From Bacillus thuringiensis (lineage in GTDB: Bacteria; Bacillota; Bacilli; Bacillales; Bacillaceae_G), in assembly GCF_051027385.1 (NCBI RefSeq), contig NZ_CP186314.1: a stretch of DNA of 64,000 nucleotides, one strand, 5' to 3'. Shown here piece after piece: positions 57,001 to 60,000 of this stretch. Numbering within the stretch: position 1 is the first letter of the stretch; every line of letters begins with the position of its first letter. A program made the position numbers.

Positions 57001-60000
57001 TCGATATGTTATGTTTCTCAAAAGAATCTGTTTTATAGAACGTGTCCACGTTTTATATTTTACTACATGTAATATTTATTTAGTGTGATTTTTACAGATA
57101 TGTATAATTACATAAAGTTTATGAGAAAAAGAGAGTATACTTCGGTATTGTGTAATAAAGATAAGGCCCATCTACGGAAATAGGTGGGCTTTTTTACTGG
57201 GTATTACTATCTCATTGCACAAAAGGGAATTTGTATTTAAATAATAGCATATTCTTAAAGTTCTCATATTGAGAAATAAAGAAAAGACACCTTAAGGCAT
57301 CCCCACAATTGGTAGATAAGACTATAGTTTTCCAACCTAAAGAAATTTTGTATCAGCTCATTGAGGGTATATCGTAATATTTAGTTTATTTATTGTGGAT
57401 TTTCACATACTTTTCTAATCCCTCTATTTTCCATTTGATAAAATAAAATCCAAATATTACCAAAATTAAATAAATATTTCTACATATTCAAGATATTTAC
57501 ATAAATTTCAAAAGTGATACATTTAAGTTGTAAGCTATAAAAACTATTAAAGGGGGATTTATTATGTTCAAGAAATTAGTAGTAGGAGCATTAGCAACAG
57601 GTATTGCATTAACAGGAGGAATTGGGGCAGCTTCAGCTGATACGCAAAAAGCTGTGAGTTCTCCGAAGCAAGCAACATGTTCAATTCCTTATGAGTATTC
57701 TAATGGTAAATTCAAAAGAACTCTTTATTACTCAAATGGAGTATATGCTAATAGTTTTAATGAAAATGTTTGTGGCGGGACGATTACGTGGTATTTAAAA
57801 CATGTTCAAAATGGAGTTGCTTTTTACGAGGGTAATTTAAAATAGTAGATTTTTTGAACCTCATGTATTGAGGTTCTTTTATTTTTAGTTTTTAAACTGA
57901 TTCTCTATAAAAAAGACACCCTAAGGTGCCTTCTTGCGATTTGCTCCATTGTAATATGGTATTGGATGCCAGTCCAATTATTATTTTACCACGTTAAGTA
58001 GTTTCGGCTATTGAGAAAAAGTACAACTCATTATTTGAATGCAAAAAGCCCTAGGGGGACTAGGACTTTTTGCTAGAATGAATAAGATTTAAAAAAGGAC
58101 TTATATAACGTAACATATGAATGTTTCGTAAATGTATCAAAAAAGTGAACAAAAGCGTTAATTTTAATAAAAAAAGCTCCGCGATAAAAGCTGCGGAGCT
58201 TCATAAGGTCGAGTTATGTCGTACTCACAAGGGATTTTAACATGAATGTTGTAGTGAAAAATACTGGTAAATTTATCCCATACCCCCCCACTGATTAGAG
58301 TTTCACTTCATTCGAAGGAATTTATGTTTTATAAATTAGATTATGATAGTTGATATTCTCCATATTGACCAGAAAAGAACTAAAAATTCTAGTGAAATTC
58401 CAAGTGTTCGTTTCCTAGTTTTTTGAAATTCTTTTATTAAATAGCCAACAGCACTAATTGCTATAAGAATGAAAAGAATAAGTTCGAGTGTAACTGGCAT
58501 TTTATCTACCCTTAATACATTAATTGTTATATAAAGATTGTAAGATATTTTTTGTGACTAGTGGTTAAAAATTCAATAGAACTATCTCTAAATGGAGTAA
58601 ATATTTCAACGGACCAATCAAAGGTCAATACAACAAGTGTTATACAATATACGCATGGAGAGCCGTGGGGTTGAAGAAATATTGAAGTATAAAGAGTTGT
58701 TAGATCGAAGGATGATTACCGAAGAAGAGTTCTAAGTGAAGAAAAAGTAACTAATAAGTATATAGATGAAACGCTCAAATGAGCGTTTTTTTATTTGTAT
58801 ATTCGCAAGTAAAATAACATAATATCACTATGAATCCTTATAACAATATGAATTTTTGCATATTTTAAAATTCAATATATCCCTCAAAAACTTTTAATTG
58901 TATAATATATTTTGTCATATTTTTAGATTTTTCGACATAAAACAACAAATATAGAAGACGTATTGGGAGAAGACATTATGTATACAAAACTATTAAAATC
59001 AATTACATCATTATCACTTATTGGAGGCGCTTTATTATATACAAATGGAAGTGATGTAAAAGCTGCTGAAGTGGGTGTTTTTTCTGATGTACCTACATCA
59101 CATTGGTCGTATCCTGCGATTAAAGATTTAGCGAGTAAAAATATTATTTCCGGTTATGGAAATGGAATATTTGGTTTTGGAGATGTTGCGACAAGGGAGC
59201 AAGTTGCAGCTTTAATTTATCGAGTGTTAGTACCGAATAAACAGGGCGGTTCGTTTAGTAATGATGGAACTCGTTACGTATTAAAGGATGGATCTACGTT
59301 TAAAAATCCTTACGGTGATATTAATCAAAGTTCTACAATGTTCCCAGAAGAGGTATTAACTTTAACGAATTTAGGAGTTTTTAAAGGTGATGAAAATGGT
59401 CAATTTAGACCGAAAGCTTCTGTGAGTCGTGCGGAAATGGCACAAATTCTTACAAATGCTTTCCATCTTGCAGCTAAACAAAAACATACCTTTAAGGATG
59501 TTCCAAATCCATTTTGGGCAGAAAACGCAATTAGTGCAGTGCAGTCAAATGGAATCGCAGATGGCACAGGGAACGGGAATTTTGAACCGTATGGCACAGT
59601 AACACGTGAACAGTATGCGCAGTTTTTATATAAAACTTTGAAATATAAAAATGCCGATGTGAAAGATACAGGAGATGCGGCATTATTAACAGCGTTTAAA
59701 GAAGAAGTACAAAAGCGTATGAATATATACGAAACAAATATTACACTTCCATATAAAACGAAAAATAACAATACAGACGAAGTGATGAATACACTTTTTA
59801 ACGCATATAAAGAAGTTGCAAGTAAAAATGAGTATACAAATAATAATAGATCGAATGTTTCATATGGACTTTCTGGATTACCTGGAAATTATACATTTAC
59901 GCTTAAGATTACATATCGTGAAACGAAAGAACAGACGGAATATGTAATGAAACAAGCGAAAGCAATCGTTTCTTCTATTACTCAAGTTGGAATGGATGAT

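What a model noticed while it worked through the whole genome (the two positions that open the first line are those of the whole stretch)
57564..57845. Two Swiss-Prot tarantula 'hainantoxins' are the mature form of a Bacillus LCI-fold peptide
Residues 35-64 of the secreted 93-aa LCI-fold protein g00907 equal the whole Swiss-Prot 'Hainantoxin F7-28.42' (30/30) and residues 38-68 match 'F8-35.23' (93.5%), both protein-level entries from tarantula venom. They are likely not spider toxins but the processed peptide of cereus-group bacteria in the venom sample. New: protein evidence and mature N-termini for an uncharacterised B. cereus peptide, a possible venom-microbiome product, and two entries to drop from spider-toxin sets.
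Evidence so far: swissprot.tsv rows P0CH76, P0CH78. Gene in 21 of 104 family genomes, 17 at 96-100%; all named relatives among 30 are Bacillus or one Brevibacterium label; paralog g00493. Searches 197, 200 found no note.
(Added by a program. Inside this text positions count along the whole contig: contig position 930,001 is position 1 of the stretch shown here. "Call 12" and the like, gene names such as g00115 and contig names such as C1 are that model's own, and its searches are not shown. The text may have been shortened before it was handed on; [...] marks where a part breaks off. The agent that wrote the report below was given it as the finding of a first reader that could run no searches.)

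Follow-up and report, generated by a model that had tools for sequence, protein, structure and literature searches.

The report
Tarantula 'toxins' are Bacillus PapRa
Two short protein records, at least one filed as a tarantula toxin, match the known Bacillus cereus signalling gene papRa almost letter for letter, so they are likely bacterial, and they suggest that its product is released as a small folded protein with a predicted disulfide and likely antimicrobial role, not merely as the seven-residue signal described in print.

Summary
The match is real. Residues 35-64 of the 93-aa ORF exist as a stand-alone 30-aa nr record (name masked here), and 'Hainantoxin F8-35.23 [Haplopelma hainanum]' matches residues 38-68 at 29/31; one of its differences (T66) is a natural Bacillus allele. 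No named homologue is from a spider. Two papers state that PapRa maturation is unknown. What is new is the link. The venom records start at K35 and T38, where a confidently predicted all-beta LCI-family domain begins, and read through PapRa7 uncut. Cys39, the first residue of PapRa7, probably pairs with Cys70 (mature parts of 66 relatives hold 0 or 2 Cys in 65, never 1). The whole domain is conserved, and 12 of 17 papRa genomes, this one included, show no PlcRa-clade regulator. Likely reading: a secreted, disulfide-closed LCI-type peptide of cereus-group bacteria in the venom sample. The records are probably partial N-terminal reads; spider enzymes may have cut the ends; activity and route into the venom are untested.

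The parts
57564..57845 (+). papRa (BC0989 orthologue), 93-aa secreted precursor
   Evidence: length, PapRa7 and both cloning-primer cores of PMC3519770 match, each once in the genome
57564..57638 (+). signal peptide, residues 1-25 (cut after Ala-Ser-Ala inferred)
   Evidence: sequence; SignalP prediction reported in PMC3519770; nearly invariant across 66 relatives
57639..57674 (+). variable pro-region, residues 26-37, predicted disordered to about residue 34; absent from the venom records up to K35 or T38
   Evidence: pLDDT under 50 for residues 13-34; residues 26-38: 5 codons with amino-acid change against 4 silent-only
   Evidence: 30/30; name masked
57675..57770 (+). residues 38-69, span of Hainantoxin F8-35.23
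   Evidence: 29/32 here, 30/32 to the T66 allele
57678..57698 (+). PapRa7 heptapeptide (residues 39-45); begins with Cys39, its end is predicted to form a beta strand of the domain
   Evidence: strand 44-46 in both models; invariant in 25 distinct coding sequences
57771..57773 (+). Cys70, inferred disulfide partner of Cys39
   Evidence: Cys counts in 66 relatives: 0 in 19, 2 in 46, 3 in 1, 1 in none; Cys70 never without Cys39
57723..57833 (+). Pfam LCI-fold match, residues 54-90
   Evidence: family profile hits PDB 2B9K at E 0.0023
57396..57563 (+). conserved upstream module with promoter-like site (57496-57523) and ribosome-binding site (about 57549-57556)
   Evidence: alignment of 8 loci; 92% to G063; consensus scan, not above chance in number; RNA contigs begin at 57539-57544 in three runs of two studies, a weak hint
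57394..57409 (.). decayed PlcR box at -170 (2 mismatches); the classical consensus is intact at this place in 13 of 17 genomes
57099..57114 (.). perfect PlcR box 465 bases upstream, on a module not shared with the other aligned papRa loci; target gene untested
   Evidence: fits the refined consensus of PMC2464732
57856..57886 (+). intrinsic-terminator-like hairpin and T run
56804..56876 (.). boundary repeat at the site where G063 carries plcRa; no plcRa here

Best explanation
The gene is papRa of the Bacillus cereus group, and the two short records are likely N-terminal reads of its processed product, made by cereus-group bacteria present in the venom sample and not by the spider. Steps: (1) export by the signal peptide (predicted); (2) loss of a floppy 9-12 residue pro-region down to K35 or T38 (ends seen in the records; the protease, bacterial or spider, is unknown); (3) a 56-59 residue, cationic (pI about 9), aromatic-rich, five-stranded beta domain of the LCI family remains (family shown by profile, fold predicted), closed by a Cys39-Cys70 disulfide (inferred); (4) this stable domain is likely the main product and would act like LCI, as a membrane-active peptide against competing microbes in stationary phase and in dead arthropod tissue, where the NprR regulon is on (activity inferred, untested); (5) PapRa7 is the tethered first strand of that domain, so any signalling to PlcRa would need a reduction and a second cut and is likely a secondary use in strains that carry plcRa.
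For: Identity: 30/30 and 29/31; T66 of F8-35.23 is a Bacillus allele, and one allele type (P0003, 228 contigs) fits both records. Of 86 near-length homologues every named one is Bacillus, Brevibacterium (1) or Photorhabdus (3); no longer form scored (weak); Atlas clusters 100% bacterial. papRa identity. Domain: Pfam lci above cut-off, 50 of 66 relatives match it, profile hits LCI 2B9K; AlphaFold mean pLDDT 92.6 for residues 35-93, with confidence rising where the records start. Disulfide: Cys parity. Whole-domain selection: residues 46-93 have 4 codons with amino-acid change against 16 silent-only among 25 distinct coding sequences. plcRa is beside papRa in 4 of 17 genomes, elsewhere in 1, and no regulator at 90% or more was found in 12. 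papRa is in the NprR regulon by a review (PMC4147580). Bacillus was the dominant cultured genus in venom of another Chinese tarantula (PMC11663165). Discrete RNA contigs over the gene in three runs, two of them tick metatranscriptomes that also hold cereus-group ribosomal operons.
Against: Huillet 2012 showed that synthetic PapRa7 is needed for PlcRa to shift the abrB2 promoter and that PapRa7 or papRa overexpression raises abrB2 in a plcRa-dependent way. 4 of the 5 regulators at 93% or more to PlcRa sit beside papRa, on either side of it, and all 17 papRa genomes hold some PlcR-like paralogue that could be a receptor, as the review proposes. No antimicrobial activity is on record for this protein in what I read; LCI itself has no disulfide and the Pfam score is only 1.3 bits over the cut-off. 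The disulfide was not measured on the model (no coordinates are returned). I could not read the venom paper, the Swiss-Prot pages or their masses, and no spider genome or transcriptome was searched. The usual PlcR box at -172 fits the refined consensus in only 1 of 17 genomes.
Confidence: 0.55

Rival explanations
1. The records are bacterial, but PapRa is chiefly a pheromone precursor as published: the folded part is a carrier, the K35 and T38 forms are intermediates, and PapRa7 is cut out, imported and read by PlcRa or PlcRb/c.
For: In vitro and in vivo effects of PapRa7 and papRa (PMC3519770); PapRa7 invariant in 25 distinct coding sequences; T38 is one residue before PapRa7; PlcRa-clade genes stay beside papRa on either side; PlcR-like genes also lie beside two other LCI-family genes with different N-terminal segments (L100-L102, L104), which could be other pherotypes.
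Against: PapRa7 was chosen by alignment with PapR, not isolated; maturation 'remains to be established'. Both records run through Y45 uncut. Cys39 probably holds a disulfide. Residues 46-93 are about as conserved as PapRa7. 13 of 17 genomes have no full plcRa beside the gene; of 30 regulator loci fetched (of 46 matches) only the 4 PlcRa ones had an LCI-family gene within 1.5 kb.
Confidence: 0.3
2. The records are bacterial and the folded domain is real, but its job is neither killing microbes nor signalling (for example a surface- or chitin-binding small protein).
For: The family is very variable in the mature part, the LCI link is distant, and net charge is modest (+1.5 to +2.8).
Against: The only characterised member of the family is an antimicrobial; small size, cationic and aromatic make-up and many divergent paralogues fit an effector.
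Confidence: 0.12
3. The tarantula encodes its own, horizontally acquired copy and the records are true venom peptides.
For: F8-35.23 has L at position 50 and N at 69, seen in none of 42 Bacillus loci. No spider genome was searched.
Against: 30/30 identity and a segregating Bacillus allele leave no room for divergence in a spider; no spider-labelled precursor among near-length, shorter or longer proteins; the two odd residues look like late-cycle sequencing slips (a repeat of the previous residue at the end; inference).
Confidence: 0.03

Closest known systems
PapRa / PlcRa quorum-sensing pair of B. cereus ATCC 14579 (BC0989 / BC0988; Huillet et al. 2012, PMC3519770)
   Same: Same gene: 93 aa, signal peptide, PapRa7 at 39-45, primer sites match.
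   Different: This genome has no plcRa at the locus or elsewhere. The papers I read do not mention the LCI domain, the second cysteine or any processed form; no held paper has both 'LCI' and 'papRa'.
LCI antimicrobial peptide of Bacillus subtilis (PDB 2B9K, Pfam PF12197)
   Same: Profile match over the C-terminal strands; small, all-beta, cationic, aromatic; 47-residue mature peptide. That LCI too is cut from a longer precursor is recalled, not from a call.
   Different: PapRa has an extra N-terminal strand and two cysteines; LCI has no disulfide. Activity of PapRa is untested.
Hainantoxins / spider inhibitor-cystine-knot toxins
   Same: Only the database label of F8-35.23 and the venom sample.
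   Different: One Cys in each record and two in the whole domain, against the cystine-knot motif of hainantoxin-IV (abstract start); homologues are bacterial.
Sppc1-3, PlcR-controlled small antibacterial peptides of B. cereus (PMC2464732)
   Same: Small secreted peptides under quorum control; a PlcR box lies upstream of papRa in most genomes.
   Different: BC0989 is not named in the main text of that regulon paper; sequence kinship with Sppc was not tested.

Membership tests
papRa (BC0989) orthologue | 93-aa precursor with signal peptide and internal PapRa7 | tested here: met
papRa (BC0989) orthologue | flanks match the published cloning primers | tested here: met
   both cores match once, at 57548 and 57843
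PlcRa/PapRa system (complete pair) | plcRa gene next to papRa | tested here: not met
   three RNPP_C genes in G000, none within the window; best 89% to PlcRa, 430 kb away
RNPP (PapR-type) signalling peptide precursor | active peptide at the C-terminus of a short precursor | tested here: not met
   PapRa7 is internal, followed by 48 conserved residues
RNPP (PapR-type) signalling peptide precursor | heptapeptide released, re-imported and bound by the regulator | not testable with these tools
   synthetic peptide active in PMC3519770; natural release not reported
LCI family (PF12197) | profile score over the curated cut-off | tested here: met
   21.6 against 20.3 bits; 50 of 66 relatives match at E 0.01; profile hits 2B9K at E 0.0023
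LCI family (PF12197) | small antiparallel beta fold like 2B9K | tested here: inconclusive
   five strands, no helix, pLDDT 92.6; fold searches gave nothing above Z 3.8
LCI family (PF12197) | antimicrobial activity | not testable with these tools
   needs purified peptide
Spider cystine-knot toxins (hainantoxins) | cystine-knot framework of three disulfides (count recalled) | tested here: not met
   two Cys in the whole mature part
Spider cystine-knot toxins (hainantoxins) | spider-encoded precursor expressed in the venom gland | tested here: inconclusive
   no spider-labelled precursor in three protein searches; no spider genome or transcriptome could be searched

The most novel reading that the evidence does not exclude
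PapRa is a two-in-one molecule: an LCI-type antimicrobial domain whose first strand is the PlcRa signal, locked in by the Cys39-Cys70 disulfide, so that the signal is freed only when the surroundings reduce the bond. That would be a redox-gated quorum signal feeding a regulon for cysteine supply and disulfide stress, and the venom records would be its trace from cereus-group bacteria living in the tarantula venom apparatus.
Probability: 0.12. Interest if true: 0.82.

Novelty: new variant of a known kind. Interest (0 to 1): 0.52.

Why it matters
More useful, it bears on a question left open in print since 2012 and 2014, how PapRa matures. The venom records are, in the papers I could search, the only protein-level view of processed PapRa, and with the LCI domain and the paired cysteines they turn the question into sharp tests (masses near 6.7 and 6.4 kDa, a Cys39-Cys70 bond, activity of the folded domain, need for reduction before PlcRa activation). 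It is also a hint that bacterial products reach peak level in venom fractionations.

Tried and rejected
Venom source papers were not held, so fraction data, sequencing method and masses were not seen; that the records come from Edman sequencing of cation-exchange/HPLC fractions is recalled. Paper searches for the record names and accessions gave 0 papers; a search with 'Hainantoxin F', 'Peptide F7/F8', the species and 'contamination' listed 10 papers, none with 'hainantoxin f'. Supplements of PMC3325205 and PMC3519770 were unreadable, and BC0989 is not in the main text of the NprR paper, so NprR control rests on the review alone. Four fold searches gave no match above noise and did not list 2B9K in the rows shown; no evidence either way. 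NCBIfam: no family for the peptide. Direct PlcR control as a general rule: weakened, since the common -172 box has a G in the A/T core. A general tie between PlcR-like regulators and LCI genes: not supported in species genomes (4 of 30 loci fetched, all PlcRa), though seen in L100-L102 and L104. Lack of cover of neighbouring genes in the tick runs is not used to rank expression. The run search gave shares of 0.33-0.48 and coded organism names, so it could not show or exclude spider runs. A complex prediction of PlcRa with PapRa was not sent: the 7-mer is under the size limit and a longer piece is not the proposed ligand. mis-oriented six loci and was redone. The scan's earlier notes held nothing on this sequence.

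Full report
Observation. The ORF at 57564-57845 encodes the 93-aa protein described, with a ribosome-binding site, a promoter-like site and a terminator-like hairpin around it. A search of 30-50 residue proteins returned 'Hainantoxin F8-35.23 [Haplopelma hainanum]', 32 aa, E 4.5e-10, identical at 29 of 31 positions to residues 38-68. Its differences are L for F50, T for N66 and a last N for V69. T66 is a common Bacillus allele: P0003 (228 contigs) matches the first record 30/30 and the second 30/32, so one strain type explains both. L50 and N69 occur in none of 42 near-identical loci; I read them as sequencing slips (inference).

Origin. Among 86 near-length homologues every named one is Bacillus, one Brevibacterium label or three Photorhabdus; a search for longer forms scored nothing among 8 candidates (weak); the four Atlas clusters shown are wholly bacterial. 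17 of 71 genomes of the genus carry the gene at 96-100%. No spider genome or transcriptome could be searched, so a transferred copy is not formally excluded, but identity to a segregating bacterial allele makes it improbable (about 3%). How the bacteria came into the sample is open. Bacillus was the dominant cultured genus in venom of the tarantula Chilobrachys guangxiensis, and a B. cereus-like isolate is listed in that study (PMC11663165, passages read); prey remains, fang surface and handling are at least as likely.

The gene is known. A full-text search with short words of the protein hit three papers. Huillet et al. 2012 (PMC3519770; abstract, passages, sections 6 and 15 read) describe BC0989, papRa, a 93-aa peptide with signal sequence upstream of plcRa, and propose residues 39-45 (PapRa7) as the signal, chosen by alignment with PapR. 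Synthetic PapRa7 was required for PlcRa to shift the abrB2 promoter, and added peptide or papRa overexpression raised abrB2-lacZ only when plcRa was present. Both cloning-primer cores match the window's flanks, once each in the genome. The paper says production and maturation of PapRa remain to be established; a 2014 review (PMC4147580, passages) repeats this, places papRa in the NprR regulon (necrotrophic growth in the insect cadaver) and proposes PlcRb and PlcRc as further receptors. I could not confirm NprR control in the source paper.

Anatomy. The C-terminal part scores over the Pfam LCI cut-off; 50 of 66 aligned relatives match the family and their profile finds the antimicrobial peptide LCI, PDB 2B9K, as best hit (E 0.0023). 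AlphaFold gives low confidence up to residue 34 and about 90 from residue 41 on; residues 35-93 alone fold at mean pLDDT 92.6 into five strands, the first of which takes in the end of PapRa7. Fold searches were uninformative. The venom records thus begin where the folded part begins and read through PapRa7 without a break; they stop inside the domain, as partial N-terminal reads would. In the mature parts of 66 relatives the cysteine count is 0 in 19, 2 in 46, 3 in 1 and 1 in none; Cys70 occurs in 30, always with Cys39, and the 16 with Cys39 alone at these columns have a second Cys elsewhere (relatives are not independent). This points to a Cys39-Cys70 disulfide, not measured. Among 25 distinct coding sequences from 42 loci, residues 46-93 show 4 codons with amino-acid change against 16 silent-only, PapRa7 0 against 3, the pro-region 5 against 4: the whole domain is kept, not only the heptapeptide. 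The 35-93 form has pI 9.0 and 11 aromatic residues.

Partner gene. This genome has three RNPP-type regulators, none in the window. Among the 17 papRa genomes a PlcRa-clade gene (93-100%) lies beside papRa in 4 (divergent upstream in 3, convergent downstream in 1), far away in 1, and none at 90% or more was found in 12; short remnants lie downstream in three. In G063 plcRa is flanked by a repeat of which the window holds a copy at 56804-56876, so it looks like a cassette that comes and goes beside a stable papRa. Against my reading: 4 of 5 PlcRa-clade genes are beside papRa, on either side, all 17 genomes have some PlcR-like paralogue at 78% or more, and PlcR-like genes also flank two other LCI-family genes with unrelated N-terminal segments. 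A classical PlcR box lies 170-173 bases upstream in 13 of 17 genomes and is decayed in this one and the three with plcRa upstream (53 boxes in 5.38 Mb), but only 1 of 17 fits the refined consensus (PMC2464732, passages), so PlcR control is uncertain.

Expression. Contigs covering just the gene, starting at 57539-57544, are in one transcriptome run and two tick metatranscriptome runs (two studies; 4 of 20 listed runs were laid); the tick runs also cover the cereus-group ribosomal operons. This is a weak hint of a single-gene transcript in arthropod-associated bacteria; contigs cannot show level or strand.

Mechanism. Most likely the precursor is exported, trimmed to a protease-resistant, disulfide-closed LCI-type domain, and works as a secreted antimicrobial in late growth; signalling through PapRa7 would need reduction and a further cut. 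Shown: identity, gene name, family match, absence of plcRa here. Predicted: signal cut, fold. Inferred: disulfide, whole-domain product, activity. The observed N-termini may owe to spider proteases. The published pheromone model remains a serious rival (0.3), and the two can be combined (novel case).

Novelty and score. The gene, the family label and the records are each known; their connection is not in the held literature that I searched (subscription journals and unreadable supplements may hold more). Interest 0.52.

Noticed in passing
window about 37500, 39500, 42250, 42650, 45600, 48050, 56800, 57280, 57910: A roughly 60-base repeat recurs between variable genes, flanks plcRa on both sides in G063 and clusters in C1 0.5-1.25 Mb; gene content around papRa differs in nearly every relative. 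It looks like the boundary of exchangeable cassettes; not compared with known B. cereus repeats.
   Followed up: partly
L100-L102 (gene about 4001-4294, regulator 4915-5808 in L101) and L104 (3761-4090, 4208-5101): PlcR-like regulators 84-87% identical to PlcRa lie convergent to other LCI-family genes that lack PapRa7, one without any cysteine: possible other peptide/regulator pairs.
   Followed up: partly
P0089, P0103, P0111: LCI-family proteins with the same signal peptide are labelled Photorhabdus, an insect-killing Gram-negative genus: possible transfer between cadaver-dwelling bacteria.
   Followed up: no
window 56256-56517: A duplicated 3' fragment of the dihydroxyacetone-kinase-like gene at 52425-54176.
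   Followed up: no
window 58847-58862 and 58963-60711: Perfect PlcR box upstream of an S-layer-homology/transglutaminase-like gene, probably the PlcR-regulated BC0991 (identity recalled).
   Followed up: no
G008:C1:2987353 and G008:C2:382608: One genome carries papRa twice, on two contigs, at 99%; plasmid copy or assembly duplicate not checked.
   Followed up: no
G000:C1:549048-549317: Cysteine-free LCI-family paralogue upstream of a small secreted protein and an ABC-transporter-like pair, 5.5 kb from a PlcR-like regulator.
   Followed up: partly
runs X5 and X12: Two oligo-dT tick metatranscriptome runs of one study hold broad cereus-group sequence, papRa included.
   Followed up: partly
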